DNA from: a virus
Direction: 5' to 3' (one strand)
Virus record (IMG/VR): IMGVR_UViG_3300024346_000008
Span: 99,935 to 163,934 of that record
DNA: 64,000 nt
This document shows, piece after piece, positions 34,901-63,268 of this stretch (position 1 is its first letter; every line of letters starts with the position of its first letter). The notes beneath the pieces were generated by a model. It saw nothing but the letters and a program-made list of their open reading frames with translations. It had not been told where the DNA came from and searched no databases. A program made the position numbers and the translations under genes.

Positions 34901-36026
34901 ATGGAATTGGAGAGTACGATGCCGATATTGCGTTATTTGCCCAACTTGCGGTTCCAAATAATGAACCCGTGATACCTTGTGTAATTGACAAGGAACCCGT
35001 TAAGGTATGATTATTATTTGATTCCAAGGTCAATTTACGAGTTACTTCTACATCACTACCACCAACAAAGAACATAATATGATTATTGGGCGTTGCATTT
35101 CCAATATGTAACATACTACCCGTAGAATACAAATATGCATCATTGGGACCGCCAATTAATCCAGTAAATTGACTACTGTTAATACCCATGTTAATATAAT
35201 TGACTTCTTCCGTTCCATTGTCGGCAGTTGCCACGATATCAGAGGATGCATCCGCGCCATTAGAATCATTTTTTAAATTAATTTGTGCATATGAGTTCGT
35301 ACTGGCCCGTGCATTGATTATATTAAATGACCCTGGAATTGCTTGTACGGCAAGTGCTTCTGGCGCGCCTGACACGGGGGAAGAAGTATTAATACCCACA
35401 AATCCTTGGGTGTCAATAAATACGCGCGCATTAGCAATTGCACTACCCGGTCCACTAAATAATATAACTCTACGATCCGGTGAGGTATTTCCAATTAGTA
35501 AATCGCCATCTCCTGCCATATACAAGTAGGCATCGTCGGCGCCACCAATAGAATCGCCGCCACTTGCGTACCCACTACCATTAATACCCATGTTAATATA
35601 ACCAAATAATTCCGTACCAGAATCCGTGGTTGCAACGATGTCAGCAGATGCGTTTGACCCCGTACTGAAATTTTTAATATTTATTTGGAAATAGTTATCT
35701 GCGGTGCCATGTACCGAGACAGCATTATAAGAAGTTGTGTCCCCAGCATAGACACCCAACACATCAGGAGCACTTGCAGTATGATTGGTAGTGGACCCAA
35801 TCAGTATACTTGATCCTGTTTGGTAGATTAAACTGGACGTTAGTGTAGTAGTACTACTCCATAATGGAATATAGTATTGTGTACCACCGGTGATGGATGA
35901 GGACGCCACCGTCTCATAATCAAATGTTTCCCATGCACCAGACTGTGAATTAAAAATTGGTACTTTTTTATGCCCAATGGCATTTAAATTTAATTCTACA
36001 GGTTGTCTACCGATTAATCTTGCCAT
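31941..36026 (-). CDS. Large tail fibre / baseplate-associated protein (1361 aa)
   Basis: Two YINMGIN modules, TGSF repeats and a Thr/Ser/Gly-rich beta C-terminal half. Confidence 0.8.
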   Translation of the reverse strand: MARLIGRQPVELNLNAIGHKKVPIFNSQSGAWETFDYETVASSSITGGTQYYIPLWSSTTTLTSSLIYQTGSSILIGSTTNHTASAPDVLGVYAGDTTSYNAVSVHGTADNYFQINIKNFSTGSNASADIVATTDSGTELFGYINMGINGSGYASGGDSIGGADDAYLYMAGDGDLLIGNTSPDRRVILFSGPGSAIANARVFIDTQGFVGINTSSPVSGAPEALAVQAIPGSFNIINARASTNSYAQINLKNDSNGADASSDIVATADNGTEEVNYINMGINSSQFTGLIGGPNDAYLYSTGSMLHIGNATPNNHIMFFVGGSDVEVTRKLTLESNNNHTLTGSLSITQGITGSLFGTASWANNAISASYSPIPSGIVSSSGQVNTGSFTGSFTGVLIGTSSWASNVISASYAPVPAGTISSSNQYSTGSYTGSFTGTLIGTSSWASNAISASYAPVAAGTVSSSDQINTGSFTGSFIGEHTGPLFGTASWATTASYVLPSGLPSGVVSSSSQVSYTGLSNVPSGIVSSSSQINTGSFTGSFIGLITASQLLVQGNLTVLGTSSVQYVTSSQLNIGNNKIVLNTSTPAVQFGGISVVDSGSGQATGSLYWDSLNNRWVYQRESGATYNSAIIIAGPKNTGTLGNETGLTTNKIPVATGDDHIGDSQITDNGTTVSITNNLSVGGSITASNGTSTTISASNITNGIPTSNAWQTSLNGSYFNNFTSNTNVSEILRFVAGLLSASAPDAAPNTKTFSTVTANQVNTTTGTVTVGNIPSASSNTTINYLTSKGFAQTGSTIFAGIGTIYTATNYGYTYTSVAAGSTTVSSSADAQLFGLGQLAGGVPTTFNVSGSFIFKFKDNSTKTDTATSASQQLITQTGAGTTSGVTLAKINTVNPAVIPGAYQDGKFAATFAPSLYTGSATTVSSSGYVHFSASISIASGSGLYNTPVASNNEIFWAPLATISTNVGTNTITVNKVITALTATSRSLSGAPYLSGSTYSISGSVTGSFNPLYYANTGIASITPTGTGVTLTSGVTTVSTAGGTIQTANAVYDSTGVTARATSTVPFETDTIKVNALTTFAASTNTNIGQSTVTPTTFTLTTTGLNKAGAATSDAQAVFYHTAGTFGQPAASGSLAYWGRNQGTDTSPSGSSTSVAESFLGENHRIQLTDNILSFTGTAWNTGSVFYNLGATDLQVKPGYLVTPGGSYGYWITNPSSASVYKYYVRRFQVSPAATKTSMTLNLGRTLVDWQTATTDTVSVLILFESSNSSIYTPARLYDPTKTTSNFVTNITANTDGQNPFGSQIALYGNSGGSVATTTYTVPIRNADGMFLNATYDEIYVLVRYNGNPVPVSTMTVTFS

Positions 36027-39247: not shown

Positions 39248-39256
39248 TATAAATAT
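39248..39256 (-). promoter_or_regulatory. Putative late promoter motif ATATTTATA (tail tube)
   Basis: About 27 nt upstream of ATG 39221. Confidence 0.65.
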
Positions 39257-44785: not shown

Positions 44786-44795
44786 TATAAATATC
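44786..44795 (-). promoter_or_regulatory. Putative late promoter motif GATATTTATA (neck genes)
   Basis: About 27 nt upstream of ATG 44759, just downstream of the capsid-gene terminator. Confidence 0.7.
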
Positions 44796-44886: not shown

Positions 44887-46515
44887 TTAGACGAGGTTGA
44901 GCTTGTCGATGTAGATCTTGCCGAAGAATTCGGGGCGAACAACCTTCTTCGCGTAACGTGTCATCACGCCACGACGAGGTGTGAAGTTCTGTGGATCGTA
45001 CACAAGTGGTGTCATGATCAATGGAATGTATGGTGCGTACACTGCGCCCGTTTCCAAGAATTGGTTACCACGGAAGCCCATCAACATCACGTTTTCTGTC
45101 ATGTATGGGTTCTTGTATACGGTGAAACGGTTCTGGAAGGAACCAATCTTCGTTACACCGGCTGCAAATTCCATCTTGTCGCCGTCGGTTCCGGCTGCAA
45201 AGCCAGGGATGGTTTCAAGAATTGTTGCAACAGTTGGTGATACGACTGCAAAGTTAGCACCGCCACGCATCGTTAATTGATGAATCTTGTTGCTCACCTT
45301 CTGCATCTTCTGACCAAGCGTTTGGAACCAAGTCATGTTGGTCCATGCCGTGCCGTAGAATGAACTTGCGGCAAATGCTCCACCACTTCCAGGTTGCTGA
45401 CCATTCCAGACTGAACCAATTTCTGCTGACCAGTATTCCGTTGTGGTTGCTGGTGCTGCATTAATTAACATGTCAAGAATTTCAAGGTCAATTTCCATTG
45501 CCACATAGTCTGACAACATACTAGTCAATTCTGCTTCTGCATCTACTGAATGGTATGCGTTCAAGTCTTGTGCAAGTTCTGGTGACCATACTGCCTTCAA
45601 CTTACGTGTCTTGGCAACAATGGTTTCCGAACGAAGTTCCAAATCAATTTCTGGAATCTGGAGGTCCGTTCCTGCATTAATACCGGCTGCTGCCGTAGTA
45701 CCACGAAGCGGATTCGTATCTTCGAAATCACCACGTGCTGTATCAACAGGTTGCTTGGTGTATGTAACACTGTTTAATACTGCGTTTGCAGTAGTAGTAA
45801 CGATAAACGTGACATTGGTTCCGTCGTACTTGGTGAATTCTGGAAGCACTGCCGAACCGAAGTTTGCGCCACTGCCACTTGGTACGAATGAACGAACTGC
45901 TAAGAAGTCAGCATTAGGTAAAACTACATTCGACACCGTGAACGAACGAAGACTACCAGTTGCAACATAATCTTGGTTGAAATTTACATCGGAAAATGCA
46001 ACCGACCCAGTAGTAACAGCTAATGACGATGTAATTTGATCATTTAATGAATAACCAAAGCGACCTGCGCCATATAGACCACCTGCTGCTTGGTTACCAA
46101 ACCCACCCCATGTACTATTTGATGCACTACCATAAAGGGATTGACCTAATGTTTGACCGTTTGATGTTGAACCATACTTGAAGTCCATGTAGAACACAAG
46201 TCCAGCAGGTAAGTTCATTGGTTGCACAGACACAAAGTTCTTTGCAGCAATTGAACCGAAGACCTTACGAACTAACGGAAGAGCAACACCGGCCCAGTTT
46301 TCACCACTGGTACCAGCTGCGTTCGTCTTACTGTTTTCTGAGAGAAGCTGTGTTGCTTGGTTTTCAAGCATTACTGCCATACCCTGCTTTTCATAGCCCT
46401 TCAATCCTTCTAGGAGGCCTGAACCTTCCCACTTACCTGCTAATTTACGGGTCTGGTCGATAACGTGCTTGTGTGCACTACCCGCTTCGTTGATAAATTC
46501 TGATACATCTGACAT
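44887..46515 (-). CDS. gp23: Major capsid protein (T4 gp23-like)
   Basis: KW..SGLLEG, LENQ, LPLVR, VQPM..P.GLVFY, KTRKLKA.WS.ELAQDL.A.H..DAEAEL, YAPY.PL and F.P..G.MTRY motifs; AAGGAG SD. Confidence 0.97.
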   Translation of the reverse strand: MSDVSEFINEAGSAHKHVIDQTRKLAGKWEGSGLLEGLKGYEKQGMAVMLENQATQLLSENSKTNAAGTSGENWAGVALPLVRKVFGSIAAKNFVSVQPMNLPAGLVFYMDFKYGSTSNGQTLGQSLYGSASNSTWGGFGNQAAGGLYGAGRFGYSLNDQITSSLAVTTGSVAFSDVNFNQDYVATGSLRSFTVSNVVLPNADFLAVRSFVPSGSGANFGSAVLPEFTKYDGTNVTFIVTTTANAVLNSVTYTKQPVDTARGDFEDTNPLRGTTAAAGINAGTDLQIPEIDLELRSETIVAKTRKLKAVWSPELAQDLNAYHSVDAEAELTSMLSDYVAMEIDLEILDMLINAAPATTTEYWSAEIGSVWNGQQPGSGGAFAASSFYGTAWTNMTWFQTLGQKMQKVSNKIHQLTMRGGANFAVVSPTVATILETIPGFAAGTDGDKMEFAAGVTKIGSFQNRFTVYKNPYMTENVMLMGFRGNQFLETGAVYAPYIPLIMTPLVYDPQNFTPRRGVMTRYAKKVVRPEFFGKIYIDKLNLV

Positions 46516-46535: not shown

Positions 46536-47720
46536 TTAAATGATTCCTGCGAGTTCTTGTAATCTTTTTGCTACCGTGTTTTCCACGATAACTTGCGACT
46601 TTGGAGCCGTACTGGGAACTGCCTTAGAGGCTAATCCTTCAGTAACAACTTTCTTACGTGATGCGTTGAACGTCTTCACTGCTGCGGAAAGATTTTCAAC
46701 TAATGTTGTATAAACAATCTTAACTTCACGAACGGTTGTTGCACGGTCAAATGATTCAACAATGCGAACTTTCTGTTCGTTGGTTAAACTATTTTTATGG
46801 AACATTTTGTTGGTGAAGAGTAACTTTGCATTAAGTAAGTTAACTTCTTGTAAACGGCCACGGAGAATGTTCACTGCTTCTCTGTACTGTGCCATTTCGC
46901 CCTTGAGTCTCGCAAGTTTATCAGCCATTGCCGTTTTTGCATCGGGAGCAACTTTTTCATCGCCCATTTCCGCATCGTCGGCTTCAAGTTCTGCAAGAAT
47001 TTCTTCAAGATCAATTTCTTCATCATCACCTTCTTCTGCGCCCATCGGTGCTTCCATTGGTGCTTCACCTTCTGTCTTTGGATTGCCAATTTTAGACGAA
47101 TCAGCAGGTACTTCTGGTCCTTCTTCGCCGGCCGGTTCGCTTTCTGGATATTCATCCTTTTCGGCGCCATGTTCCTTACCCGAAAGTGCAGCAATATCTT
47201 CTTCCAATTCACGAATTACTTCGTCAAGGTCAAAATCACTTTCTGACCAATCATCGTACCAATCCGTTGAACTATCTGTGTTTGCTTCTGGTCCATGACC
47301 AATGTCTGAAGTGGCTTCTGCGTCGGCAGTTGGCATCTTGTTATCTGATCCACCGATTGCTGACGTATTAGCAGGGAACTCTTTTCCACCACTAACGTTT
47401 TCGGCATCTTGCCACGGCTTTTCTGATGTTGCTTCTTTCTTCACATCGCCGCCAGTCTTTGCTGCAACTGCCTGCTTCATCGGTTCTTCAGTATCACCGT
47501 CCTTATCCGCATCAAGAAAGTCTGGCTTTGCACTTTCTTCGACTTCATCTTCGTCGTTAGCCATATCAGCTTCAACACGAAGACGGCGTGAAATCATATC
47601 ACGAATCTGTGGGGTTATTGCTTCTTCTAAAACCAATTTTGCATTTGCTACGGCAGTTTCACGAACTGCTTCTGCATCCGCAATAGCTTGTTTTAAAAGC
47701 TTGTTGGTAATCTGTGTCAT
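46536..47720 (-). CDS. gp22: Prohead core scaffolding protein (T4 gp22-like)
   Basis: Highly acidic with coiled-coil ends (AIADAEAVRETA.ANAK..LEE; EVNLLNAKLL; RLQELAGI); immediately upstream of the capsid gene. Confidence 0.82.
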   Translation of the reverse strand: MTQITNKLLKQAIADAEAVRETAVANAKLVLEEAITPQIRDMISRRLRVEADMANDEDEVEESAKPDFLDADKDGDTEEPMKQAVAAKTGGDVKKEATSEKPWQDAENVSGGKEFPANTSAIGGSDNKMPTADAEATSDIGHGPEANTDSSTDWYDDWSESDFDLDEVIRELEEDIAALSGKEHGAEKDEYPESEPAGEEGPEVPADSSKIGNPKTEGEAPMEAPMGAEEGDDEEIDLEEILAELEADDAEMGDEKVAPDAKTAMADKLARLKGEMAQYREAVNILRGRLQEVNLLNAKLLFTNKMFHKNSLTNEQKVRIVESFDRATTVREVKIVYTTLVENLSAAVKTFNASRKKVVTEGLASKAVPSTAPKSQVIVENTVAKRLQELAGII

Positions 47721-48757: not shown

Positions 48758-49153
48758 TTAGTAAGTTAAAACTTTATAGGATACGGCAACCATTTCATTT
48801 AATGAACTTTGTAATAATGTTTTTTTATTTTGTTCATTTAACTTATTCATTACGGTTACCAACATTTGGGCGGTAAAGACATCGACCAATTGCCCTTTTA
48901 CTTGCGCAGGAATCTTCGTGATTGCAATTTCTCGTAACGTTTCTTCCGTATATACGGGAGAATGCAAAATGGTATGCAATATTTCTTTGAGAGTATCGTG
49001 TGAGGTAGACGCGTATTTTTTTGCATCCGTAGACGATATACTCTTTGCAATCTTTTTAATTTGCGCACTTACTTTGCCAGCAGGAATTTTACCTGTTTGG
49101 TATGCGTGGACAATGCCAAATAATCGTTGTTGAGATTTGCTTTTTGATGGCAT
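48758..49153 (-). CDS. Hypothetical protein, DUF3008-like N-terminus
   Basis: MPSKSKSQQRLFG...AKS....AKKYAST.H motif. Confidence 0.6.
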   Translation of the reverse strand: MPSKSKSQQRLFGIVHAYQTGKIPAGKVSAQIKKIAKSISSTDAKKYASTSHDTLKEILHTILHSPVYTEETLREIAITKIPAQVKGQLVDVFTAQMLVTVMNKLNEQNKKTLLQSSLNEMVAVSYKVLTY

Positions 49154-49154
49154 G

Positions 49155-49739
49155 TTACTTTACTTCACTCAAAAAGTCGTGAATTAACTTATTGATATTA
49201 TCATATGGTGCAGCAACTTGTTGCATCACATTTTCGGTAATAAACGCACCCATTGTGGATGGATTACTGACGATATCAAAACAAATTAAGGCAAAGTCTT
49301 CTTGGACTTCTACCGTGTTTTCACTCATTTGTTTGACCGATCCCATACCACGGGAACTCACTCCGAGTTTTATATTATTTCGAATTAATTCCCGAACAAT
49401 GTTTCCTGTTGGAGTCGTGAGAATTTCAATGTTACCCCGTACATCATCACCTTCGGTCCAGAGTTCAACGATGTTACAACACACGTTCTTTAAATTCACT
49501 ACTGGACTTTCTGGGTGGTCTAGTTCACCCAGCGCTCGTCGTTGTGTCACAAAGTTTTGTTTATAGACACTTGCTTCACGCATTAAAATTTCTTTGGGAT
49601 AGACACGCCCATTTTGATTTTTTGCGTTAGCACGTTGTAATACGACATTACGAAGGATTAGTGGTTTATTACCATCTAACGCTTCCGTTAAAAGTTCTTT
49701 ATTATATTGAAGTTCTGTGTATTCACATAGTAATGCCAT
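49155..49739 (-). CDS. gp21: Prohead core protease (T4 gp21-like)
   Basis: N.NGRVYP, ALGELDHP, ILTTP.G, GVSSRG.GS and D.VSNPS..GA motifs. Confidence 0.95.
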   Translation of the reverse strand: MALLCEYTELQYNKELLTEALDGNKPLILRNVVLQRANAKNQNGRVYPKEILMREASVYKQNFVTQRRALGELDHPESPVVNLKNVCCNIVELWTEGDDVRGNIEILTTPTGNIVRELIRNNIKLGVSSRGMGSVKQMSENTVEVQEDFALICFDIVSNPSTMGAFITENVMQQVAAPYDNINKLIHDFLSEVK

Positions 49740-49740
49740 A

Positions 49741-50247
49741 TTAATTTCTCATGTCGCGCAAACGTGCCGCTAGTTCAGTAAGTTTACCTTCCAACTTGAC
49801 CATTTGTGTAGTCGTGCGTTTCCATAAATTATCATTAGATAATCCAGATTCTTTCTTTAAACGACTGTTCATTTTTAAGGCACGTTCAACCAACTTCAAT
49901 TGTCTATTTAATTCAGACATTGCTTGACCAATTTTTTGATGTGGTTGACGAGTTTGATCGTTACGGTAGGAATAATAATTCTCTTGTAATGTTTTTACGC
50001 CTTCTTGAATTGCTTCAAATTTTTCTTGAAGTTTATCGCCCGGCGTAACATCTTTTGCACCACGATTGGTCAAGGAATATCCAATAGATTTTGCCATTTT
50101 TTTAATATGATTTGCATTACTATGTTTGTCCCCGACAAATGCATTAGGTGTTAAATATCCCGCAACGTTTCCGGTTGTTGATATTTCATTTAAATTTTCA
50201 CGGATATGTTTACGAATAATTTCACGTAATCTCTCTTCAATATTCAT
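49741..50247 (-). CDS. Hypothetical head-associated protein
   Basis: LNEISTTGNVAGYLTPNAF motif after an LxE site; head module context. Confidence 0.65.
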   Translation of the reverse strand: MNIEERLREIIRKHIRENLNEISTTGNVAGYLTPNAFVGDKHSNANHIKKMAKSIGYSLTNRGAKDVTPGDKLQEKFEAIQEGVKTLQENYYSYRNDQTRQPHQKIGQAMSELNRQLKLVERALKMNSRLKKESGLSNDNLWKRTTTQMVKLEGKLTELAARLRDMRN

Positions 50248-50250
50248 GGT

Positions 50251-51129
50251 TTATCTCAGTGAATTAAGTTCGTGTGAAATCTGATATGCAATCAATAACG
50301 CCGTGATATAGTTATCTTTCACTTGATTCTTTTGCTGAATCTGTTGTAGTTGATGTACTACTTCATTGACTTTAATCTTCGTGACTTCATCAGTAATTTT
50401 ATTAGAATTCTTTTTAATATCACGAATTAAACTGATGGCTTCTGTGGACACATATGTACCAAACTTTTCTACGTTCGTTCCATTATTAATATATTCACGA
50501 AGTAAATTCTTTTGTTTATCACTGAAATTACTGTACTTTTCATTGAAACTTTCTAACAAGAATTTATAGGAAAGATACCGAATTTCTTCTGGTTGATCTT
50601 TTAACATTGCCGAATAATTTGATTCTTTGACAATTTGTTCTTCTTTCAGTTCACCCTTTAAATGTTCAACAATCACAAATCGTGCGGCAACCATTTCGTC
50701 AATTTGCATATATACCGATTCGTCAATATTTGACGCACTGGTTGTTTCAAATAATTTGTAAATGGATGCGTGAACTTTATAGGAAGGAACTCGACCAGAC
50801 ATAAATTGTTTCAAATCACAATTCTGCTTAATTTCTCGTATCAATAGAAATTTTTGTGCATTTAGTAATTTTTCATTTAATGATGCCCGTCGTTGTAATA
50901 CGACATCTAACATATTAAATGCTTTACCTTCTGAGAGTTTCGGTGCATTAAAGAAAGAACGATACAATTGTAATTCTTTTCCTAATTCCGATTTTGAGTG
51001 GAAATGTTCACGCATCATTTTGACTGCAAAACTATCTGGTTTGCCGTCGAGAACATCTGCGGCAACTTTTCTGACTAATAGTTCAAACAGAATGCCTGTG
51101 TTCTTAATTTTGTTGTGCCGTATATTCAT
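50251..51129 (-). CDS. Conserved hypothetical head-module protein
   Basis: IRHNKIKNTGILFELL...FNEKYS......K.LLREYI; lies between portal and protease. Confidence 0.7.
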   Translation of the reverse strand: MNIRHNKIKNTGILFELLVRKVAADVLDGKPDSFAVKMMREHFHSKSELGKELQLYRSFFNAPKLSEGKAFNMLDVVLQRRASLNEKLLNAQKFLLIREIKQNCDLKQFMSGRVPSYKVHASIYKLFETTSASNIDESVYMQIDEMVAARFVIVEHLKGELKEEQIVKESNYSAMLKDQPEEIRYLSYKFLLESFNEKYSNFSDKQKNLLREYINNGTNVEKFGTYVSTEAISLIRDIKKNSNKITDEVTKIKVNEVVHQLQQIQQKNQVKDNYITALLIAYQISHELNSLR

Positions 51130-51191: not shown

Positions 51192-53075
51192 TTAATCCTC
51201 TACTTTATCGTCAGATGACAACTGTTCTGCAATAATTTGTTTGTATTTACTAGTATTTTTCATTTGTAATTTATCTAAGAAATCTTTTGCTTCTAACGAT
51301 AAGGTAGACCGCTTGTACCGTTTGGTATTTTCTTTATGTCCTAATGGGTCACGGCCAAGCGGATGTGCATCAGTACCAAATTTTAATCCTTCTCTTGGAC
51401 GACCACCTCTATTTTTCATAAGTGCTTCTTCTAGTTCCTCATCAACTTCTTCGTCAACAGAACTGTCTTCTAGACTCTGTAAAATTTGATCTACATCGTC
51501 AATTTGAGCTTCTTGATCGTCTGCACTAACATCTCCTTCCGGCGGAACTTCCCCTTCTGGTGGTACTCCTCCTTCTGGTGGCATTCCACCCATTTGTGGG
51601 TCTTGAGGTTGTGCCATTGCTTGTTGTTCTTGCTGCCGTTTTACATCTTCGATAATCTTCTTTCGTTCTTCAACAATTTCATCATCTGATAATTCAAGAA
51701 TGTGATTGTAGACCCAATCTTGAGAAAGAAGAATAGTTTGTCCACCGGTCATTTGTTGCGCCAATCCAAACTTTTCTTTCCAGATATTAATTTTTTCTTG
51801 TTCGTATAATGTGGAAGGATTCGTTAACGAGAGTTCAAAGTTGACGAGTTTTTCATCCGTAAATCCTTGGACATATAAATGAATGATGGCAATCTTGGTA
51901 AGTTCCGATACCATGATGCGTTGAATACGTTCAATAGTTCGTGCAAATCGCACATCTTGTGCTGCCAATGTTGCCTTTCCATTAATATCTTCTTCATATC
52001 CAATAAAGGACTTAGGTACTTTAAATGCCGCAAGAAGTTTTTTACGGAGATATTCAATGTCTTCGATTGCATTGAATTGTAATCCTTGCATGGTTTCAAT
52101 TTCGGTTCCACTATCCTTACCACGCACTGGAAGATAGAAATCTTCGGTAATATTCATCATATTATATCGAAGATTATAATCGCCCGTTTTCGGGTCTACC
52201 AACGGCGTTTTCTTGGAACGGTCAATGATACGATTCATATATGTATCAACTTCGGCGGGAGGAATGTTGCCAATATCAATTTTGAACTTCCGTTTGTCGG
52301 GTGCTCTCATGATACGATGAATTAACATTGCGTCTTCCATGAGTTGCAATTGTTTCCAGACACGACGACCACCTTCAATCATGGCTTTTCCATACGGAAG
52401 AAAGTTTGTATCTGATAATAAACGAAAATGTGCAATTTCGTAGTTATCAAAATCTTTCTTACCTAATTGTAAGAAATCGGTATCAATGGAGAATCTTACG
52501 GAGAATGGATTGCCCGGTTGTTCACCTTCGACACGAATAGTTTCATAGACAGATAATGGAACGGCATTTACGATACCATATTCAGGATCAATGTCCAGAT
52601 ATAAAAATAAATCTCCGTATTTTGCCATGTTGCGCACCCACGGCCAGAGATTAAATTCTACATTGAGAATATCGTAAAATAAATTATGGAGAATTTCTTG
52701 AACTTGTGTATCATCGGTTTTAATCGTGAGAATGCGGTCAAACTCATCCTTGACTGTACTTTCATCCGCATAAATATCTAATACTGACGCAATGATGGGG
52801 TCATTGTCCATCATGTCATAATCACGGAACAACTGTAATCGTGCTCCTTGGAATGAAGCTGCCGCTTCATACCGACCATGTGCTGACCCATATCCACCTG
52901 TGGCAGAATTATATACACGATGGTACCGATCAACACCTCGTCTGTTAACAAACGATTGAATTTGATCCGTATCTGCAATACGAAGTTTTTTTCCACCCAC
53001 ATTTCGTACAATTGTGTTCGTGGAAAAAAGTTTCTTTAGTCTACCAAAAATTCCATTGTTACTAGTATCTGCCAT
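51192..53075 (-). CDS. gp20: Portal protein (T4 gp20-like)
   Basis: QL.LMEDA.LI.RI.RAP..R.F.ID.GN, EDF.LPVRG..SGTEI.T..G and L.A.KVP motifs; acidic C-terminal tail. Confidence 0.96.
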   Translation of the reverse strand: MADTSNNGIFGRLKKLFSTNTIVRNVGGKKLRIADTDQIQSFVNRRGVDRYHRVYNSATGGYGSAHGRYEAAASFQGARLQLFRDYDMMDNDPIIASVLDIYADESTVKDEFDRILTIKTDDTQVQEILHNLFYDILNVEFNLWPWVRNMAKYGDLFLYLDIDPEYGIVNAVPLSVYETIRVEGEQPGNPFSVRFSIDTDFLQLGKKDFDNYEIAHFRLLSDTNFLPYGKAMIEGGRRVWKQLQLMEDAMLIHRIMRAPDKRKFKIDIGNIPPAEVDTYMNRIIDRSKKTPLVDPKTGDYNLRYNMMNITEDFYLPVRGKDSGTEIETMQGLQFNAIEDIEYLRKKLLAAFKVPKSFIGYEEDINGKATLAAQDVRFARTIERIQRIMVSELTKIAIIHLYVQGFTDEKLVNFELSLTNPSTLYEQEKINIWKEKFGLAQQMTGGQTILLSQDWVYNHILELSDDEIVEERKKIIEDVKRQQEQQAMAQPQDPQMGGMPPEGGVPPEGEVPPEGDVSADDQEAQIDDVDQILQSLEDSSVDEEVDEELEEALMKNRGGRPREGLKFGTDAHPLGRDPLGHKENTKRYKRSTLSLEAKDFLDKLQMKNTSKYKQIIAEQLSSDDKVED

Positions 53076-55804: not shown

Positions 55805-55813
55805 TATAAATAT
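55805..55813 (-). promoter_or_regulatory. Putative late promoter motif ATATTTATA
   Basis: About 33 nt upstream of ATG 55772. Confidence 0.6.
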
Positions 55814-55838: not shown

Positions 55839-57422
55839 TTATCCAATCAACCATCGAATATCTTCAGTTTCCGAGTTCCCAATTTGTATTTGATAAGGGT
55901 CAACTGGCATATCATTGGGTAGATTACCTCGTTTCATAAATGGAGTGCTGGAATAATCAGTGTGCGTGAGTGCCAATTTGGTTAATTCAATGCCCTGTTG
56001 ACGTAACCGCAGTGCGGTATCACGAACCCACAATCCAATACCCAACGCCATTACTAAGTCGTCATTATATCCACTTAATGCTTCTGCACGGCCGTTTTTC
56101 CAAATAAACGTTTCTAATTCTGCTAATGTTCTGGAAGATCGAATCGTAATTGACGTTTCCCGCATATATTCTTCTAGTTTGGCAATGATTAGTGGTCTGG
56201 TTCGTTGTGAAATGACGAATCCTGCCACCAAATTGCGTTCACTCTTATAGGATTGCTGATGTTCTACGTCAATATACTGCATATCCTTAGACATATAAAA
56301 TAAATTTCTATATCCACGGTCAATTACTTGCTGCACCGAACTCCATCCAATCGAACTGTTGTCTGGAATCAATAATGCGTCATTATATTCTGTTGCCAGC
56401 GATACCATAAGGTTACCAAACTCCTTGGTGGGAATTTTACCCTTATATTCGGCTACTTGAATAGAACGTTCTGCGTCAATGATATGAATGGTGGAATAGT
56501 CCTCACCATCACCTCTTGCAACGTCTGCAGCAGCAATATAGGTTCTACCCGCATCAGGATATTCCCATATCCACAGATTTCCGTCAAACCCTTGCTTAGA
56601 AATGGGTTCTGTCACATAGGTTTTCTTATAAAATTCTAATATTTGTGGGTTGACAACCGTATTACCCGAGAAAATAAAGGATGCATCGTGTTCTTGGGAC
56701 GATTGCATCTCACCCATCATTTCAGTTTGACGGTCACGCCACGCTTGGTCACGTTCTGGATGGACTTTCCAATCTAACAGAATGGGATTGAAACTATTTG
56801 ACTTAGTTTCTGCTTGTTGCCACATTTTATGGAAGAAATTACCCACGCCGTTCGGCGTTGATAGCAATATGGCTTTACCACCCGTAGATAGAGTAGACGA
56901 TGCGGCGGTCCAGATGATATCTGCATCATCGATGAACGCGGCTTCGTCCAGAATCAATAAAGACAGTGCTTCAGAACGACCCGCATCCTTACTACTTGCT
57001 ACAGCCTTAATTTGTGACCCGTTGGCAAATTGTAATGATAATTTGTTATCGGTTGTGCAGGTACCCCGTAACCACACGGGCAAATTTGCGTGCATAAATC
57101 GCACTTTGGTGACAAGATTTTTTGCCGTTTCTTGCTTGGTGGCAATAACAAGGATGTTTTTGTCACGATGGAACAATAATAACCACAGTGCATATCCGGC
57201 CACCAATGTAGAAATACCAATCTGTCTACCTTTTAAGACAATATTATTATCGTGCTCGTCGAAATCACGAATGGCATCTTTCTGATACTTGTATAACTCA
57301 AATAATACCTTTCCCCGAATGGGATGTTGGATATATGAGTATTTACTGAGAAAGTATTCTGGACTTACCGCACATTTTTTGTATTCTTGTTTGATAAGGT
57401 CTTTTAAATTTGGTTGCGTCAT
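55839..57422 (-). CDS. terL: Terminase large subunit (T4 gp17-like)
   Basis: LKGRQIGIST, LLILDEAAF, LSTPNG.GN.F, AADVARG.G.DYS and DDLVMA motifs; no intein seen. Confidence 0.96.
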   Translation of the reverse strand: MTQPNLKDLIKQEYKKCAVSPEYFLSKYSYIQHPIRGKVLFELYKYQKDAIRDFDEHDNNIVLKGRQIGISTLVAGYALWLLLFHRDKNILVIATKQETAKNLVTKVRFMHANLPVWLRGTCTTDNKLSLQFANGSQIKAVASSKDAGRSEALSLLILDEAAFIDDADIIWTAASSTLSTGGKAILLSTPNGVGNFFHKMWQQAETKSNSFNPILLDWKVHPERDQAWRDRQTEMMGEMQSSQEHDASFIFSGNTVVNPQILEFYKKTYVTEPISKQGFDGNLWIWEYPDAGRTYIAAADVARGDGEDYSTIHIIDAERSIQVAEYKGKIPTKEFGNLMVSLATEYNDALLIPDNSSIGWSSVQQVIDRGYRNLFYMSKDMQYIDVEHQQSYKSERNLVAGFVISQRTRPLIIAKLEEYMRETSITIRSSRTLAELETFIWKNGRAEALSGYNDDLVMALGIGLWVRDTALRLRQQGIELTKLALTHTDYSSTPFMKRGNLPNDMPVDPYQIQIGNSETEDIRWLIG

Positions 57423-58119: not shown

Positions 58120-58692
58120 TTACTCTCCTGTTTCTACTTCCGTCAGAAATCCATTTAATTCTTCGATATCTTTCATAATATCCGCCTTTACTTTATCAAT
58201 ATCTACATGCCACTTTTCAATCATTAATATACGAGTGTCATCGGCATGGATAACTTCTGGTGCTGTTACGGTGTCATATAAATTTTGTAATTCGGCAATT
58301 CTATCTTTAAGTGACGCAATATAATTTTCTTTCATTTTGCGTTCTTCATATTCCTCCCATGTGCCCAATCGACGCATTTCAGTTTCTTCCTTGATAACAC
58401 AGTCCATGCACTTGCCACGAAGTCCCCAAAATTTAATGTCAAACCGATGCCCCATTGCCTTGTCACATTGTGGACAAAACCACGGCGTTTTTGCTCCATC
58501 CAGTTTCGTAACGGTTTGTTTAATACCATTTTTCATGACCCACTTTTTATCGTTTAAGTCGGTCCACGTATCACCTTCTTGTCGAATGGGTTCCAAGCCC
58601 GGACGCCATCCTACGACAATTTGTTCGCTATTCTTTTTTAATACTTCATTAATTTTTCTACGAGCATTATTAATTGCTTCATGTTCTGCCAT
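58120..58692 (-). CDS. Hypothetical Zn-ribbon protein
   Basis: CPQC...CMDC; EGDTW...KKW..KNGIKQ; GAGG SD. Confidence 0.65.
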   Translation of the reverse strand: MAEHEAINNARRKINEVLKKNSEQIVVGWRPGLEPIRQEGDTWTDLNDKKWVMKNGIKQTVTKLDGAKTPWFCPQCDKAMGHRFDIKFWGLRGKCMDCVIKEETEMRRLGTWEEYEERKMKENYIASLKDRIAELQNLYDTVTAPEVIHADDTRILMIEKWHVDIDKVKADIMKDIEELNGFLTEVETGE

Positions 58693-58706: not shown

Positions 58707-61700
58707 TTAATCTGTTCTGTTTTTAGGAATACCCGCACGATTGGATATTCCACGCATGTGTTGACGAATAACACCCATTGCTACTTTATGAGCTGGATGT
58801 AATCTGTCATAATCCATTGCGGTATCAATCTTAATTTGATTGCCCGTTTCTGGATTTGTAATTTTCATTTGTAATATTTTTTTAAAGAGATCTTTTTTGC
58901 CACCCTTTGGTTTGTCTTTTGGTGCATCTGCAGATGTTGTTGGTACCGATCCGACCATTGGTGCCCCATACTGTAACACTTTTACGGGCATCGTGTGTCG
59001 TAATGCTGCTAACGCAGACAATCGTGTGTTACCACCCAATAAATAATATCCATTAGAGTGTTTTATCACAATTGGCTCCGGTAATTTTTCCTGTTGTTTT
59101 ATTGCCGTCAATATACCCTTTACATCTTTTTTATATTCTGTACCAATTTTTTTAAGAACTTCCTTTGGATTTTTACTAGATAATACTTCTGGAACTTCAC
59201 TATTTGATAGTTGCTCCAACTCGTCTTTTGTCAAGACTTCACTGGGTGCTGCCAAAATTAATTTCTTTAATTCTTCTGCAGAATCAGCCATGTCAGGAAA
59301 CGATTCAATAGTTCGTTCGTTTTTAAAATATTCACCAACTTCGTTGTCTAATTCATCCTTAGTATAATCTCGTACATATACATAGACCTTTAATTTTTCA
59401 GACTTAGTATTTTCGGTTAGTATGGATTCATTTGCATTCATTGCATCTTGTACCATTTTTTCTGCTGCTTTTCTAACCGGCTCGTTCTCTGGATATTTTA
59501 AGGCCGTTGCCACTAAGATATCACGATTAGTTTTTGGATTACGAACCTTGTTACCCAATACGGATTTTGCGCGACCAATTGCTGTTGCATCGGGTTTTTT
59601 CTTTCCCCGCTTTTTTGTTGCTGGTTCTTCTTGACTTGCGTGCATATCCGTCAACTTGCGTGCTTCTTCTGCGTCGGTTGTTGTTTTAATAATTTTCTTA
59701 AATATTTTTGGATCAAACTTACCATACACTTTCGTAAAGATTTCTTGTTTTGCTCTATCGGTAATATTTGGGTCACCCATAATAGCACGTAGTTGAGTTC
59801 CACTGATATTTTTCCCATCGATATCTAATTTCATCTCTGGTGCTACGATAAAATATCCTTTGTCTTTATATCCTTTGTGCTCCCCATCTGGTACATCATC
59901 AAAATTACGGAAGTACTTTCCACCGCCCAATCGATCAGCATCTTTTTGACTGACTGCCGTCACATACGAAGTTTCAGGAGGAAGTTTATCTAAAATTTCT
60001 ACTGGTGCATATGGATTTCTAACCTGCACCACCATCTCGTCGGGAATGTCAAACATACGAGTCATAATATCTTTCTTTTCCTTAAATCCAAATGGAGATT
60101 TAATAGGATCTGTCACATTACTGGACGCAATGTATACATTTTCTTTACCAAACTTCTTCACCATTGCTTCATAAATACTATAATGACCCGCATGAAATGG
60201 TTGAAAACGACCAGTGAATATTGCCACCGTGCGTTTTGGTACAGACGGTTCAGTTGGTGTTGATGGTTCCATTGAGGTAGGTGAAGTCGTTTCACCCGGC
60301 AAATTATATGTTGCTTCATATTCTTTTTTAGCCACTCGATAATATCCTTCACCATCTTTCACCAAATAGTCACCGGGCTTTAATACCATTTGTTCTCCCC
60401 ACGGTGCGGTGAAGGTTACTTCATCTTTGCCTGTATATCGTGCCACTTGTCTTGGAGATTGTTCTGGGATTACGGTACCGTCATCTTGTTTAGCATATAA
60501 CTTCTCAAATTTTGCTGCTTTTACTACATATTTTTCTCCGCTGGGACCGGACATAATAATATCACCTGGCGCTGCGGTATTTTCTGTTTCTTTGCCGTCT
60601 GCTGTAATGGTTACCACCTTCATCTCAGATGTAGCGGTGGCAAACGTCATCGGTTCCATGTCTTCTAAGGCAGAACTATCTTCAACTTCCCCGTGATTAG
60701 AATATTTTACAGGTTTCTTTGTAACGGGTTTAAATTGTAATTTATCGGTAACAGATTTAATATCCGTTGGTTCTTCTGGTTCCTCTGATTCCGGTGGAGT
60801 CATACCAAACTTAAAGGTACCGGTAATTTGATTGATGGGCGCAAACTGTCCGGTGAACTTATATGGTTTCCCGTTGTAAATAAATACGACACCTTCGGAT
60901 GGGACTATATTATCTATGCCCATTGCTTCCAATCGTTCTAATTCCCGCTGTAGTTTACCAATTTTATCAGGTTGATTACTATCACGAATGGCTTTAATTG
61001 CTTCTAAGACATCTCGTTTTAATTGATTACTTGCTTCTGGGTTATTAACGGATAGAAAGTTGGTAACTCGACGCAAAGAATCTGTTCCTGCCTGTAAAAA
61101 TGTCATTTCGATAGGATTGATCATTTTCTTTTGTGCAGCAGCCAATGATTCTTTTTCATATTGCCTAAACCATTTCTTGGTTTCATCGTTTTCTATATTT
61201 TTTACACCAAACTTCTTGTCACCATCTGCCCACCGACGAACTAACCCATCAAACTCATCTTCGGATAACTCCATACCCGTTCGTTCCATTTCTTTTTGAA
61301 TTTCCTGTTCCCACCATGCACGACGATAGTCTGCCAATGTTGAATTTTCGTCCAATCCAAACTCTTGTGCAGTCCGATCCAATCGTCCATTATATTGTTC
61401 TGCCTTTTGTTGATATCGTTCTGTTTCCGCATCACTAAAGGCAATTGTTTTTGGTCCGCTAATACCAAACGTTTGTTGTTTATCTGCCCCAACTGCAGTC
61501 ACCGCATCGGCAAATTCCTTGCCATCAGTATTAGAACGTCCAATTTCATTACCATCTTCGTCATATTCAATGGTGCCATGCATGACCAACACACTTTTTC
61601 CATACGGGATAACATTTTGGGTGTCGGGGAGGATAACTTCTAAGCTCATGAACTTTGAACCGTCTCCGAACATTTGCTGGCGTTGCTCCGGTGTCAATTT

Positions 61701-63233
61701 TTCTACTGCTGCTTGTAAATCTTCTGCTGCCCCAGTAAATGCCTTTTCAATATTGCCACGACCTGCAAACATATTCCGAATACCTGCGGTGTCCAGTGCG
61801 TTTTTTCCACGATTTTTTACCTGTCCTTTATTACGAGCAAATACAATCTGGCCGTCACGTATTGAGAAGGCAATGTTCTGACCGTCTAGTTTTTCGGTGA
61901 CCGGCGCTTCTTGATCCAATCCACCGAGTAACCCACGGTCAATCATTTCCTTCATATCTTTGAAGGTAAGTTCTTCATCTTCAAATGGATGTGCAAGGTG
62001 TCCTGCTGCACCGCCTTCCATAAGATATCTGCCCGTTTCATTCCAGCACTTATGACATACAAATGGGTGTTTGCCACCGTCGTTTGCATTCCACGCCCAT
62101 CCGCAGACTCGACATTTAATTGTATTTTCTGAAATATAGATGCTATTATCTACCTTACCGTAATCACGAAGGAGAATGCCCGCAATAATGTTGGCGTTAT
62201 TTTCAATACGTGACCCCGTGGCGCCATCAATTTCGGGATTTGTAATATATCCCATCTCATTTTGCTTTTGATGTGCCATTTCGTGCGCAACGGTTCGTAA
62301 AATATCGGCAAGTAATCTATCTTCGACAACCACAAAGATTTGATTAGAAATTACATCATATTTGCCCAAACTTGTTAGGCTATCGTCTGCTGGCATCAAT
62401 GAAACAACGGGAGTTTGTTGTAAATTTAATCGAACTGCGGCATATGTAACAAATTGTTGTACATCCATTGCAATGCCGTCCGGAGAATAGCATTCTTTCA
62501 CTTTATCTCGCCCGTGGTCTTTCTTTGCAAGCTTCCATGACCCGCCATGTGGGCCCTTTGGATGATGTACGTCATGATTTTTCATTTTACTCTTGCCATG
62601 TTTCTTAACTGCCTTACGACGGTCGCGGTTGCGCGCAACTCTATCGTGAACGGTATCCTTTAAATACTTGCTTACCTTTTTAGGATGCCGTTTATAATAT
62701 CGTCTAACACGCTCGGTACTACTATCTGCTTCATCAACGGTATCAGTTGCCTCGTACTCATCGTCGTCACGGTGCATGCCCGATTCATCGTCGGCATACT
62801 TTAATAATAAGGGTTTTTTAAGGATGGGCAAGTTGCTATTATATGCACCCACCAACCCCGATAGCGGATAATCTATACCTTCCCCTACCTCACCCTCCGA
62901 TAACCCCGTAGAGGTCAAACTGGGGTCCGCTAGACCCCTATCCGATGACACTGCGTAGGTCATCAACATAGGATAATGGTGAGCACCGTATTTAAATGCT
63001 ATTTTACATTTATCACGAATTGTTGCCACGCTATCCGTTGGGGATATAGTATACGATTCATCTAATTTCATAGATAAAATTAAATTATTATAATTCTTGT
63101 GCAATTCGGTTAGTGCTTTAGCTGCCACAAATTTAATATCCGTGGATACTTCGTGTTGTAATGTATACCGAAGTGCGGCACAACGTTGTGCATTATCTAT
63201 TGGCAATAAAAGGTTTTTATGTAAAATGTCCAC
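58707..63233 (-). CDS. Multi-domain polyvalent protein: HNH-like, zincin peptidase, Zn ribbon, RNA-ligase-like nucleotidyltransferase, PGD repeats, HxGH nucleotidyltransferase, ParB-like
   Basis: DVHH; HEMAH (62271-62285); CRVC/CHKC; EKLDG (61881-61895), EGVVF (60882-60896), YKF; PGDII/PGDYL; GRFQPFHAGH...ISGT.LR; PIVI...LLGGNTR. Confidence 0.8.
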   Translation of the reverse strand: MDILHKNLLLPIDNAQRCAALRYTLQHEVSTDIKFVAAKALTELHKNYNNLILSMKLDESYTISPTDSVATIRDKCKIAFKYGAHHYPMLMTYAVSSDRGLADPSLTSTGLSEGEVGEGIDYPLSGLVGAYNSNLPILKKPLLLKYADDESGMHRDDDEYEATDTVDEADSSTERVRRYYKRHPKKVSKYLKDTVHDRVARNRDRRKAVKKHGKSKMKNHDVHHPKGPHGGSWKLAKKDHGRDKVKECYSPDGIAMDVQQFVTYAAVRLNLQQTPVVSLMPADDSLTSLGKYDVISNQIFVVVEDRLLADILRTVAHEMAHQKQNEMGYITNPEIDGATGSRIENNANIIAGILLRDYGKVDNSIYISENTIKCRVCGWAWNANDGGKHPFVCHKCWNETGRYLMEGGAAGHLAHPFEDEELTFKDMKEMIDRGLLGGLDQEAPVTEKLDGQNIAFSIRDGQIVFARNKGQVKNRGKNALDTAGIRNMFAGRGNIEKAFTGAAEDLQAAVEKLTPEQRQQMFGDGSKFMSLEVILPDTQNVIPYGKSVLVMHGTIEYDEDGNEIGRSNTDGKEFADAVTAVGADKQQTFGISGPKTIAFSDAETERYQQKAEQYNGRLDRTAQEFGLDENSTLADYRRAWWEQEIQKEMERTGMELSEDEFDGLVRRWADGDKKFGVKNIENDETKKWFRQYEKESLAAAQKKMINPIEMTFLQAGTDSLRRVTNFLSVNNPEASNQLKRDVLEAIKAIRDSNQPDKIGKLQRELERLEAMGIDNIVPSEGVVFIYNGKPYKFTGQFAPINQITGTFKFGMTPPESEEPEEPTDIKSVTDKLQFKPVTKKPVKYSNHGEVEDSSALEDMEPMTFATATSEMKVVTITADGKETENTAAPGDIIMSGPSGEKYVVKAAKFEKLYAKQDDGTVIPEQSPRQVARYTGKDEVTFTAPWGEQMVLKPGDYLVKDGEGYYRVAKKEYEATYNLPGETTSPTSMEPSTPTEPSVPKRTVAIFTGRFQPFHAGHYSIYEAMVKKFGKENVYIASSNVTDPIKSPFGFKEKKDIMTRMFDIPDEMVVQVRNPYAPVEILDKLPPETSYVTAVSQKDADRLGGGKYFRNFDDVPDGEHKGYKDKGYFIVAPEMKLDIDGKNISGTQLRAIMGDPNITDRAKQEIFTKVYGKFDPKIFKKIIKTTTDAEEARKLTDMHASQEEPATKKRGKKKPDATAIGRAKSVLGNKVRNPKTNRDILVATALKYPENEPVRKAAEKMVQDAMNANESILTENTKSEKLKVYVYVRDYTKDELDNEVGEYFKNERTIESFPDMADSAEELKKLILAAPSEVLTKDELEQLSNSEVPEVLSSKNPKEVLKKIGTEYKKDVKGILTAIKQQEKLPEPIVIKHSNGYYLLGGNTRLSALAALRHTMPVKVLQYGAPMVGSVPTTSADAPKDKPKGGKKDLFKKILQMKITNPETGNQIKIDTAMDYDRLHPAHKVAMGVIRQHMRGISNRAGIPKNRTD

Positions 63234-63258: not shown

Positions 63259-63268
63259 TATAAATATC
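63259..63268 (-). promoter_or_regulatory. Putative late promoter motif GATATTTATA (polyvalent protein)
   Basis: About 26 nt upstream of GTG 63233. Confidence 0.65.

What the first reader, a model, noticed from the sequence alone, without database searches (positions are those of the whole stretch)
58707..63233. 1508-aa polyvalent protein that looks like a protease-cleavable, capsid-delivered anti-defence toolkit
Seen: tandem domains comprising a basic HNH-like segment, an HExxH zincin, a Zn ribbon, a covalent nucleotidyltransferase/RNA-ligase-like domain (motif I EKLDG, IV EGVVF, V YKF), a duplicated PGD module, an HxGH adenylyl/cytidylyltransferase, two NP[KE]T..I repeats and a ParB/Srx-like domain. 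Several junctions fall at hydrophobic-x-E sites (TVDE/A, KVKE/C, YISE/N, YLME/G, ILTE/N). Established: T4 gp21 cleaves head proteins after [LI]-x-E. RNA ligases repair anticodon-nuclease damage, and NMNAT-type HxGH enzymes can rebuild NAD+. Inference: a late-expressed polyprotein is packaged in the prohead, cut by the gp21 homologue and injected to counter RNA-cleaving or NAD-depleting defences.
Basis: partly seen in the sequence, partly recalled or inferred. Interest (0 to 1): 0.82.

Follow-up and report, generated by a model that had tools for sequence, protein, structure and literature searches.

The report
Phage multi-enzyme tRNA-repair polyvalent protein
A 1508-residue phage protein strings a previously unclassified RNA-ligase-type enzyme and an NMNAT-like enzyme together with swappable accessory domains, most likely as a kit for mending cut tRNA; whether it travels inside the capsid is still unproven.

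Summary
- Residues 407-822 fold as a covalent nucleotidyltransferase closest to RNA ligases, and the catalytic motifs are invariant.
- An HxGH nucleotidyltransferase, a PGDYG domain, a zincin, a Zn ribbon, a ParB/Srx-fold domain and a repeated NPxT module are supported.
- The HNH call and the PGD duplication are not supported.

The ligase-like domain defines a large, phage-only family with no Pfam model (2456 clusters). In 78 of 80 loci the gene sits directly upstream of a conserved 190-aa gene and the large terminase. Relatives swap in a P-loop kinase, cREC, 2H, HD and CCA-adding domains, so tRNA/RNA healing and sealing is the best reading.

[LI]-x-E sites are not enriched. However, three linker sites are conserved. 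In a quarter of relatives the Glu before the ligase module is replaced by Met preceded by an in-frame AAGGAG, which suggests the module is released as a separate polypeptide.

A gp21-type protease and a shared promoter-like motif exist. Capsid packaging, injection and NAD+ rebuilding remain untested. First-stage readers of this scan flagged the same family in other genomes.

The parts
58707..63233 (-). Whole ORF, 1508 aa, GTG start
   Evidence: Homologues 86-97% identical, several of the same 1508-aa length.
63259..63266 (-). Promoter-like octamer TATTTATA, 25 nt upstream of the start codon
   Evidence: Genome-wide, 12 of 25 copies have an ORF start 10-45 nt downstream, against 0 of 25 for the reverse complement. 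The octamer also precedes structural genes.
62874..63233 (-). N-terminal region (res 1-120), variable or absent in relatives, no family match
62484..62765 (-). Basic His/Asp-rich segment (res 157-250). 'HNH-like' by motif only.
   Evidence: H220, D221, H223, H224, H240 and D243 are invariant. No Pfam HNH match.
62136..62468 (-). Zincin-like metallopeptidase domain (res 256-366; HEMAH plus E344)
   Evidence: Atlas lead to M78/SprT. Optional module, present in about half of the relatives.
62034..62123 (-). CxxC...CxxC Zn ribbon (res 371-400), inserted between two conserved hydrophobic-x-Glu sites (E369, E406)
60768..62015 (-). RNA-ligase-fold covalent nucleotidyltransferase (res 407-822) with a helical insertion. 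This is the constant domain of the family.
60306..60581 (-). PGDYG domain (res 885-976), optional module
59634..60227 (-). HxGH (HIGH) nucleotidyltransferase, NMNAT-like at its N-terminus (res 1003-1200)
59433..59567 (-). NPxT module, copy 1 (res 1223-1267)
58941..59291 (-). ParB/sulfiredoxin-fold domain (res 1315-1431; GGNTR motif)
   Evidence: Atlas lead.
58749..58883 (-). NPxT module, copy 2 (res 1451-1495)
58120..58692 (-). Conserved 190-aa gene that follows the ligase-like gene in 78 of 80 related loci. Function unknown.
55839..57422 (-). Large terminase subunit, same transcription direction
49155..49739 (-). gp21-type prohead protease (Peptidase_S77), the candidate Glu-specific processing enzyme
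   Evidence: E 3e-28

Best explanation
This is a modular ('polyvalent'-style) multi-enzyme of a distant T4-like myovirus.

Its invariant core is a pair of domains:
- A new, unannotated family of RNA-ligase-fold lysyl-nucleotidyl transferase. It starts at GGAxGH, has a KxDG lysine at K448 and carries a large helical insertion.
- An HxGH nucleotidyltransferase of NMNAT-like type.

Around this pair the lineage shuffles accessory modules. Here these are a His/Asp-rich basic segment, a zincin, a Zn ribbon, PGDYG, ParB/Srx and NPxT repeats. In relatives they are a P-loop kinase, cREC, 2H, HD and a CCA-adding enzyme.

The most likely job is healing and sealing of RNA, above all tRNA, that host nucleases have cut. 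The HxGH domain would supply or process an adenylylated small molecule (NAD+ is one candidate; this is inferred).

The gene heads the terminase transcription unit behind a promoter-like motif shared with structural genes. The modules are probably separated after conserved hydrophobic-hydrophobic-x-Glu linkers. Cleavage, the protease responsible and capsid delivery are inferred, not shown.
For: Fold and motifs.

Family size and range:
- 2456 clusters in 1.84 billion representative proteins.
- No Pfam model over the ligase-like domain.
- Only 14 loci among 185,579 species genomes. All are MAG contigs, and most show the same terminase/portal synteny.

RNA-repair partners fused to the same domain:
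- AAA_33/Zeta kinase.
- cREC_REC, E 2.5e-25.
- PolyA_pol (CCA-adding), E 1.6e-64, with its RNA-binding domain; also HD and 2H.
- CTP_transf_like in 30 of 38 long members, in either domain order.

The phage also carries 21 tRNA genes.

Gene context: 78 of 80 loci show the same gene order, and the promoter-like TATTTATA motif precedes the gene.

Module release:
- The residue three positions before GGAxGH is L, I or M in 77 of 77 loci.
- The residue just before GGAxGH is Glu in 58 and Met in 19.
- The Met forms have AAGGAG-N9-ATG in 17 of 19 cases, although AAG and GAG make up only 29% and 25% of Lys and Glu codons there.
- E369, E406 and E1274 are conserved inside indel-rich linkers.
Against: - No enzymatic or proteomic data exist for any family member.
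- Foldseek E-values to solved ligases are weak (0.013 or worse), and Z 9 is only moderately above the tool's stated background.
- Pfam RNA_ligase scores 14-16 bits against a cut-off of 27.
- This particular protein lacks an end-healing (kinase or phosphoesterase) module, and no polynucleotide-kinase (AAA_33) match above the cut-off was found elsewhere in the 164-kb contig.
- The HxGH substrate is unknown.
- ParB/Srx, the zincin and the basic segment are not RNA-repair domains and may point to DNA-directed roles.
- The kinase domains could be nucleoside kinases rather than polynucleotide kinases; phrog_505 'polynucleotide kinase' matches only at 7e-6.
Confidence: 0.6

Rival explanations
1. The protein is made late, packaged into the prohead, cut at [LIM]-x-Glu linkers by the gp21-type protease, and injected with the DNA. 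Its modules then act at the very start of the next infection.
For: - A Peptidase_S77 gene is present.
- The small head-core ORFs between portal and capsid genes are enriched in [LI]-x-E (9 against 2.1 expected; 11 against 4.4; 4 against 1.0). This fits a T4-like protease specificity.
- The capsid protein starts EFINE|AGS.
- Linker sites E369, E406 and E1274 are conserved.
- The Met/AAGGAG alternative gives the same N-terminus, so the hydrophobic-x-Glu motif is not needed for the ligase fold.
- The promoter-like motif is shared with structural genes.
- A zincin and a ParB-fold domain are hub domains of polyvalent proteins, which are predicted to be capsid-delivered; phage P1 DdrB is processed and packaged (PMC5512222).
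Against: - No virion proteomics exist for any relative, and no paper on Mel-JY01 was found.
- No MuF or capsid-targeting sequence was found.
- Overall [LI]-x-E is not enriched (11 against 14.1).
- A quarter of relatives have Met rather than Glu at the key site.
- From my own knowledge, the T4 RNA ligase genes (63 and 24.1) lie among structural genes although their products are not known virion components, so position alone is weak evidence.
Confidence: 0.35
2. A cytoplasmic multi-enzyme. It is expressed with the late genes but never packaged or cleaved, and it works as one flexible chain that repairs tRNA so that late proteins can be made.
For: - The domains are joined by Pro/Glu/Ser/Thr-rich linkers typical of tethered enzymes.
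- The known phage RNA-repair enzymes (T4 Pnkp, Rnl1, Rnl2) act in the cytoplasm; this is from my own knowledge, with background in PMC7824862.
- [LI]-x-E is not enriched.
Against: - It does not explain why hydrophobic-hydrophobic-x-Glu is kept in front of the ligase module whatever domain lies upstream.
- It does not explain why relatives replace the Glu with an internal ribosome-binding site plus ATG.
- It does not explain the zincin and ParB-type modules.
Confidence: 0.3
3. A DNA-directed packaging accessory. The ligase-like domain would seal or adenylylate DNA ends or nicks before or during packaging. The HNH-like and ParB-like parts would handle DNA, which would explain the strict linkage to the terminase.
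For: - Synteny with the 190-aa gene and the large terminase in 78 of 80 loci.
- ParB/Srx-fold domains in phage polyvalent proteins are predicted DNases (PMC5512222).
- DNA ligases also appear among the fold matches (Z 5-7).
Against: - RNA ligases outrank DNA ligases throughout.
- The fused partners in relatives are tRNA or RNA-end enzymes, not DNA enzymes.
- The closest cultured terminase relative (Flavobacterium phage immuto) shows no homologue in the 9 kb upstream of its terminase, and the tblastn found none in that phage.
Confidence: 0.08
4. The main role is NAD+ reconstitution against NAD-depleting defences, with the HxGH domain acting as an NMN adenylyltransferase.
For: - The best NCBIfam and PDB matches of the HxGH domain are NadM and archaeal NMNATs (5.5e-8 and 3.6e-6).
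- The GRFQPFHAGH and ISGTQLR motifs are present.
Against: - The matches cover only ~60 residues and score 32 bits against cut-offs of 127-449.
- The genome has no NadV/NAMPT. In surveyed phages NadM always co-occurs with NadV (PMC9503650).
- No KptA is present.
Confidence: 0.12

Closest known systems
ATP-dependent RNA ligases (Naegleria NgrRnl/Rnl5, fungal Trl1 ligase domain, T4 Rnl1 and Rnl2, trypanosome REL1)
   Same: Shared nucleotidyltransferase fold (Z 9.1-7.2, 181-208 residues aligned). Shared motifs I (KxDG), III, IV (EG) and V (K).
   Different: - 12-16% identity, and no Pfam or PDB sequence-level match.
- A conserved GGAxGHxxHPF N-terminus.
- A helical insertion of roughly 170 residues between motifs IIIa and IV.
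- No OB fold or other known C-terminal ligase domain.
- Always fused or linked to an HxGH nucleotidyltransferase.
Healing-and-sealing tRNA repair systems (T4 Pnkp + Rnl1; fungal and plant Trl1 ligase-kinase-CPD; phage ligase-cREC-kinase-MazG clusters described in PMC9503650)
   Same: Across the family the ligase-like domain is combined with a P-loop kinase, cREC, 2H, HD and CCA-adding domains.
   Different: The parts are fused in one chain with a shuffled order. The window's own protein carries none of the healing modules. An HxGH enzyme is the near-universal partner. The gene is fixed at the head of the packaging operon.
Polyvalent proteins of phages and conjugative elements (Iyer et al. 2017, PMC5512222), e.g. 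phage P1 DdrB
   Same: Many-domain chain with variable architecture, a zincin peptidase and a ParB/Srx-fold domain, encoded next to virion and packaging genes.
   Different: That paper's main text does not mention HxGH/HIGH transferases, cytidylyltransferase or PGDYG. It states that the 2H domains of polyvalent proteins were never seen with RNA ligases. No MuF or ArdC anchor is present here.
NadM / archaeal NMN adenylyltransferases
   Same: HxGH and ISxTxxR motifs. These are the best profile matches.
   Different: Only the first ~60 residues match and scores are far below the equivalog cut-offs. There is no Nudix or kinase partner here and no NadV in the genome.
T4 capsid-delivered proteins (Alt, IPI-III) matured by gp21
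   Same: A gp21-type protease gene is present, and hydrophobic-x-Glu sites lie at domain borders.
   Different: No capsid-targeting leader was recognised. Packaging and cleavage are untested.

Membership tests
Covalent nucleotidyltransferase (RNA/DNA ligase, capping enzyme) superfamily | Motif I KxDG with the nucleotidylated lysine | tested here: met
   E447, K448, D450 and G451 are invariant in 35 homologues and in at least 90% of the 22 diverse sequences.
Covalent nucleotidyltransferase (RNA/DNA ligase, capping enzyme) superfamily | Motifs III (acidic), IV (EG) and V (Lys) | tested here: met
   E532, E780-G781 and K792 are invariant.
Covalent nucleotidyltransferase (RNA/DNA ligase, capping enzyme) superfamily | Nucleotidyltransferase fold | tested here: met
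   Model pLDDT 86. The top 10 of 48,161 chains are all ligases, nine of them RNA ligases, at Z 9.1-6.9.
Covalent nucleotidyltransferase (RNA/DNA ligase, capping enzyme) superfamily | Formation of an enzyme-NMP adduct and end joining | not testable with these tools
   Needs biochemistry.
Pfam RNA_ligase (PF09414, Rnl2-type) | Score above the gathering threshold | tested here: not met
   13.8-16 bits against a cut-off of 27, and only motif I is aligned. I therefore treat it as a new family within the superfamily.
HxGH (HIGH) nucleotidyltransferases, Pfam CTP_transf_like | Pfam score above the cut-off, plus the HxGH and ISxTxxR motifs | tested here: met
   30.2 bits against 21. H1014, H1017, S1144, T1146 and R1149 are conserved.
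NMN adenylyltransferase (NadM / archaeal NMNAT equivalogs) | Score above the NCBIfam equivalog cut-off | tested here: not met
   Best score 32.4 bits against a cut-off of 397. Only about 60-70 residues are matched.
ParB/sulfiredoxin superfamily | Alpha+beta fold with a conserved Arg in the GxxR-type pocket motif | tested here: met
   The top 6 of 48,161 chains are Osa, two sulfiredoxins, SerK, PadC and SbnI (Z 5.8-4.6). In the second look the top 33 rows are all ParB/Srx-fold. G1401, N1402 and R1404 are invariant. The Z values are modest.
ParB/sulfiredoxin superfamily | Pfam ParB_N sequence match | tested here: not met
   No match at E <= 10 in the whole contig. Some relatives match DUF5661 over this region.
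Zincin metallopeptidases | HExxH plus a third ligand, with a family-level sequence match | tested here: inconclusive
   H317, E318, H321 and E344 are invariant. DUF6782 matches 23 of 35 homologues (best 9e-5) and M78 matches 6 of 35. P0001 itself scores only 13 bits against a cut-off of 27. The fold was not modelled.
HNH endonucleases | Pfam HNH match or beta-beta-alpha-metal fold | tested here: not met
   The Pfam HNH search of the contig hits only another locus. The fold was not modelled. Only an invariant HD-HH...H-D pattern is seen.
Polyvalent proteins sensu Iyer et al. 2017 | Many unrelated domains in one chain, variable architecture between relatives, hub domains (zincin, ParB), and location next to virion genes | tested here: met
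Polyvalent proteins sensu Iyer et al. 2017 | Delivery into the host with the DNA | not testable with these tools
   Needs virion proteomics or injection assays.
Substrates of T4 gp21-type prohead protease | Conserved [LI]-x-Glu cleavage sites | tested here: inconclusive
   Three linker sites are conserved. There is no overall enrichment, and 19 of 77 relatives have Met at the key site.
Substrates of T4 gp21-type prohead protease | Presence inside the prohead, or a capsid-targeting leader | not testable with these tools
   No leader was recognised, and no proteomic data are available.

The most novel reading that the evidence does not exclude
The family is a previously unrecognised class of RNA ligase (N-terminus at GGAxGH, helical insertion, obligate HxGH partner). 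It would be matured into separate enzymes by the prohead protease and injected with the genome. That would make it the first RNA-repair kit delivered ready-made by a virion, pre-empting tRNA-cleaving defences before any phage gene is expressed.
Probability: 0.3. Interest if true: 0.8.

Novelty: new variant of a known kind. Interest (0 to 1): 0.62.

Why it matters
RNA ligases and polyvalent proteins are both known kinds. This work defines a large, phage-only, unannotated ligase-like family of thousands of sequence clusters in aquatic metagenomes. The family is always at the head of the packaging operon and is always coupled to an HxGH nucleotidyltransferase.

It gives three testable things:
- A new RNA-ligase family with an unusual insertion.
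- An unexplained enzyme pairing (ligase plus NMNAT-like) that may reveal a new step in RNA repair or end modification.
- A concrete junction (hydrophobic-x-Glu|GGAxGH, or an internal start) for testing whether phages deliver repair enzymes through the capsid.

Tried and rejected
Searches that found nothing or little:
- Megablast of the gene against 50,697 phage records: no match.
- tblastn of residues 404-1265 found only distant relatives: Microcystis phage Mel-JY01 and three uncultured huge-phage records.
- tblastn with the Mel-JY01 homologue did not bridge to T4-like cyanophages.
- tblastn of the ParB-like part against phages: no match.
- A profile of the ligase domain against PDB sequences: nothing.
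- A full-length profile against PDB: NMNATs only.
- Pfam ParB_N, KptA and NAPRTase found nothing in the contig. Pfam HNH hit only another locus.
- AAA_33 gave only weak P-loop hits. One of them is a MoxR/CobS-like AAA+ ATPase, not a polynucleotide kinase.
- The NPxT module found no convincing structural relative (Z <= 4.4).

Ideas tested and dropped:
- Internal duplication of the PGD region: not supported (E 2.5).
- Enrichment of [LI]-x-E in the protein: rejected.
- The T4 late promoter TATAAATA in the coding sense: 0 of 25 copies precede an ORF. The reverse octamer TATTTATA does.

Tools and papers not available:
- Burroughs & Aravind 2016 (NAR 44:8525) is not held.
- No paper on Mel-JY01 was found.

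Full report
**Setting.** The window is the last 64 kb of a single 163,934-bp IMG/VR virus contig, about 90% complete. All large genes in the window run on the minus strand and form a myovirus morphogenesis block:
- large terminase, 55839-57422
- portal, 51192-53075
- gp21-type Peptidase_S77 prohead protease, 49155-49739
- major capsid protein, 44887-46515
- tail sheath, 39310-41952

The terminase is 52% identical to that of Flavobacterium phage immuto, 50% to Microcystis phage Mel-JY01, and about 33% to T4-like cyanophages. This is therefore a distant T4-like lineage. The contig also carries 21 tRNA genes.

**The ORF.** The ORF 58707-63233 (minus strand) encodes 1508 aa from a GTG start behind a GGGAG site. 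The big protein collection holds homologues 86-97% identical, several of the same 1508-aa length.

**Domain anatomy.** A BLAST map against 120 homologues shows a modular chain:
- 1-120: variable
- ~121-250: a very conserved basic segment
- 256-400: optional
- 404-822: universal
- 830-985: optional (19 of 120)
- ~1000-1215: universal
- C-terminal part: present in about two thirds

Pfam passes only CTP_transf_like (30.2 bits against a cut-off of 21) and PGDYG (27.8 against 27). It gives a sub-threshold RNA_ligase hit at the KxDG motif.

*Ligase-like domain.* An AlphaFold model of residues 404-830 has pLDDT 86 and pTM 0.82.
- Foldseek's list consists almost only of RNA and DNA ligases, but with weak E-values.
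- VIA-align against 48,161 representative chains puts ligases in the top ten, nine of them RNA ligases (NgrRnl Z 9.1, Trl1 8.4, REL1 7.7, Rnl2 7.5, Rnl1 7.2). ATP-dependent DNA ligases and capping enzyme score lower.
- K448, D450, E532, E780-G781 and K792 are invariant.
- A helical insertion splits the nucleotidyltransferase fold.

*C-terminal region.* A second model (residues 1216-1508, pLDDT 84) shows a ParB/sulfiredoxin fold at about 1315-1431.
- The only three chains with Z >= 5 among 48,161, and the top six overall, all belong to that superfamily.
- The GGNTR motif is invariant.

*Other modules.*
- Zincin: the HExxH plus E344 motif is invariant, and sub-threshold metallopeptidase matches recur across homologues.
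- Zn ribbon: a four-Cys insertion present in 11 of 35 homologues.
- NPxT modules: the two copies are true repeats (E 3e-7).
- 'HNH': this remains only a motif resemblance.
- PGD 'duplication': not supported.

**The family.** The ligase-like domain has no Pfam model and no sequence-level PDB relative. Even so, a profile search finds 2456 clusters among 1.84 billion representative proteins. Lengths run from 417 to 1909 aa, and the domain is usually at the C-terminus.

Among 185,579 species genomes it occurs only on 14 MAG contigs, and most of these show the same terminase/portal synteny. In 80 IMG/VR loci the gene is followed in 78 by a homologue of the 190-aa ORF 58120-58692 and by the large terminase, then by portal and protease.

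**What the partners say.** The HxGH domain accompanies the ligase-like domain in 30 of 38 long members, in either order. Other fused modules are:
- AAA_33/Zeta-type P-loop kinases
- cREC_REC, E 2.5e-25
- CCA-adding enzyme head and RNA-binding domains, E 1.6e-64
- HD and a 2H phosphoesterase
- Ros/MucR and DUF5661

cREC, 2H, kinase and RNA ligase together are the known vocabulary of phage RNA repair (PMC9503650 and PMC7824862). This is why I read the core as a tRNA/RNA healing-and-sealing enzyme.

The window's own protein lacks a healing module. In its place it carries a zincin and a ParB/Srx-fold domain, which are the hub domains of 'polyvalent proteins' (PMC5512222). The main text of that paper does not mention HxGH transferases or PGDYG, and it notes that its 2H domains were never seen with RNA ligases.

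**The HxGH domain.** Its best matches are NadM and archaeal NMNATs. They cover only about 60 residues and lie far below the cut-offs. The contig has no NadV/NAMPT and no KptA. NMNAT activity is therefore a hypothesis, not a finding.

**Processing and delivery.** [LI]-x-E is not enriched in the protein (11 observed, 14.1 expected). It is enriched in the small ORFs between the portal and capsid genes, as expected for substrates of a T4-like protease.

TVDE and KVKE are not conserved.

Across 77 related genes:
- The residue three positions before GGAxGH is always L, I or M.
- The residue just before GGAxGH is Glu in 58 and Met in 19.

In the Met forms the DNA reads AAGGAG-N9-ATG in 17 of 19 cases. 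This holds although AAG and GAG are minority codons there and the ligase domains are only 46-100% identical. That pattern looks like an internal translation start.

Both routes would give a ligase module that begins at GGAxGH. This argues that the hydrophobic-x-Glu motif is a junction signal rather than part of the fold. It is suggestive of proteolytic release, and the Glu-specific prohead protease is the obvious candidate. Neither cleavage nor packaging is shown.

**Expression.** TATTTATA, read in the coding sense, lies 25 nt before the start codon. Genome-wide, 12 of 25 copies precede an ORF start by 10-45 nt, against 0 of 25 for the reverse complement. The octamer also precedes structural genes, and it or a close variant recurs upstream of the homologous gene in relatives. 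The gene therefore probably heads the terminase transcription unit and is co-regulated with morphogenesis genes. This is an inference.

**Verdict.** The capsid-delivery part stays an attractive but untested hypothesis, which I put at about 0.35. The NAD+ part is weak.

First-stage readers of this scan flagged the same family in at least four other genomes. Those are unchecked notes and were not used as evidence.

Noticed in passing
window 63259-63266, 55805-55812, 44786-44793, 39248-39255 (minus-strand sense TATTTATA): A promoter-like octamer lies 25-32 nt upstream of several gene starts. Genome-wide, 12 of 25 copies precede an ORF, against 0 of 25 for its reverse complement (the T4 late-promoter sequence).
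   Followed up: partly
L063, L064, L070, L074 and 15 further loci, just before the ligase-like domain: An in-frame AAGGAG-N9-ATG lies inside long ORFs, exactly where other relatives have hydrophobic-x-Glu. This is a likely internal translation start that would give a free-standing ligase module.
   Followed up: partly
window 50251-51129, 49741-50247, 48758-49153, 46536-47720: The small ORFs between the portal and capsid genes are 2-4 fold enriched in [LI]-x-E, as expected for scaffold or core substrates of a gp21-type protease. The capsid protein begins EFINE|AGS.
   Followed up: partly
G000:C1:1111-12804 and 24782-24855 (outside the window): There are 21 tRNA genes, 20 of them in one array at the other end of the contig. 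The array is interspersed with ORFs, including a weak HNH match (8334-8465) and a MoxR/CobS-like AAA+ ATPase (4477-5667).
   Followed up: partly
window 58120-58692: A 190-aa ORF with no family match follows the ligase-like gene in 78 of 80 related loci, always just before the terminase. It could be the small terminase subunit or a partner of the big protein.
   Followed up: no
window 22828-29919 and 31941-36026: Two very large ORFs (2363 and 1361 aa) sit in the tail region. The first has PHROG matches only at its C-terminus and the second has none.
   Followed up: no
alignment A4 (family members): One family member carries an intein (Intein_splicing/Hint). Three carry a complete CCA-adding enzyme in front of the ligase-like domain.
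   Followed up: no
BFVD entry A0A0M6VVW4 (Synechococcus phage S-PM2): A 591-aa 'cytidyltransferase-like' protein of a classical T4-like cyanophage is a distant structural match to the ligase-like model (E 1.8e-5). The ligase-like/HxGH pairing may therefore reach into cultured cyanophages.
   Followed up: no
L086, L087, L089, L094: Four of the 14 MAG contigs that hold the family are binned as Pelagibacter/Pelagibacteraceae. This is a weak hint at the host range.
   Followed up: no
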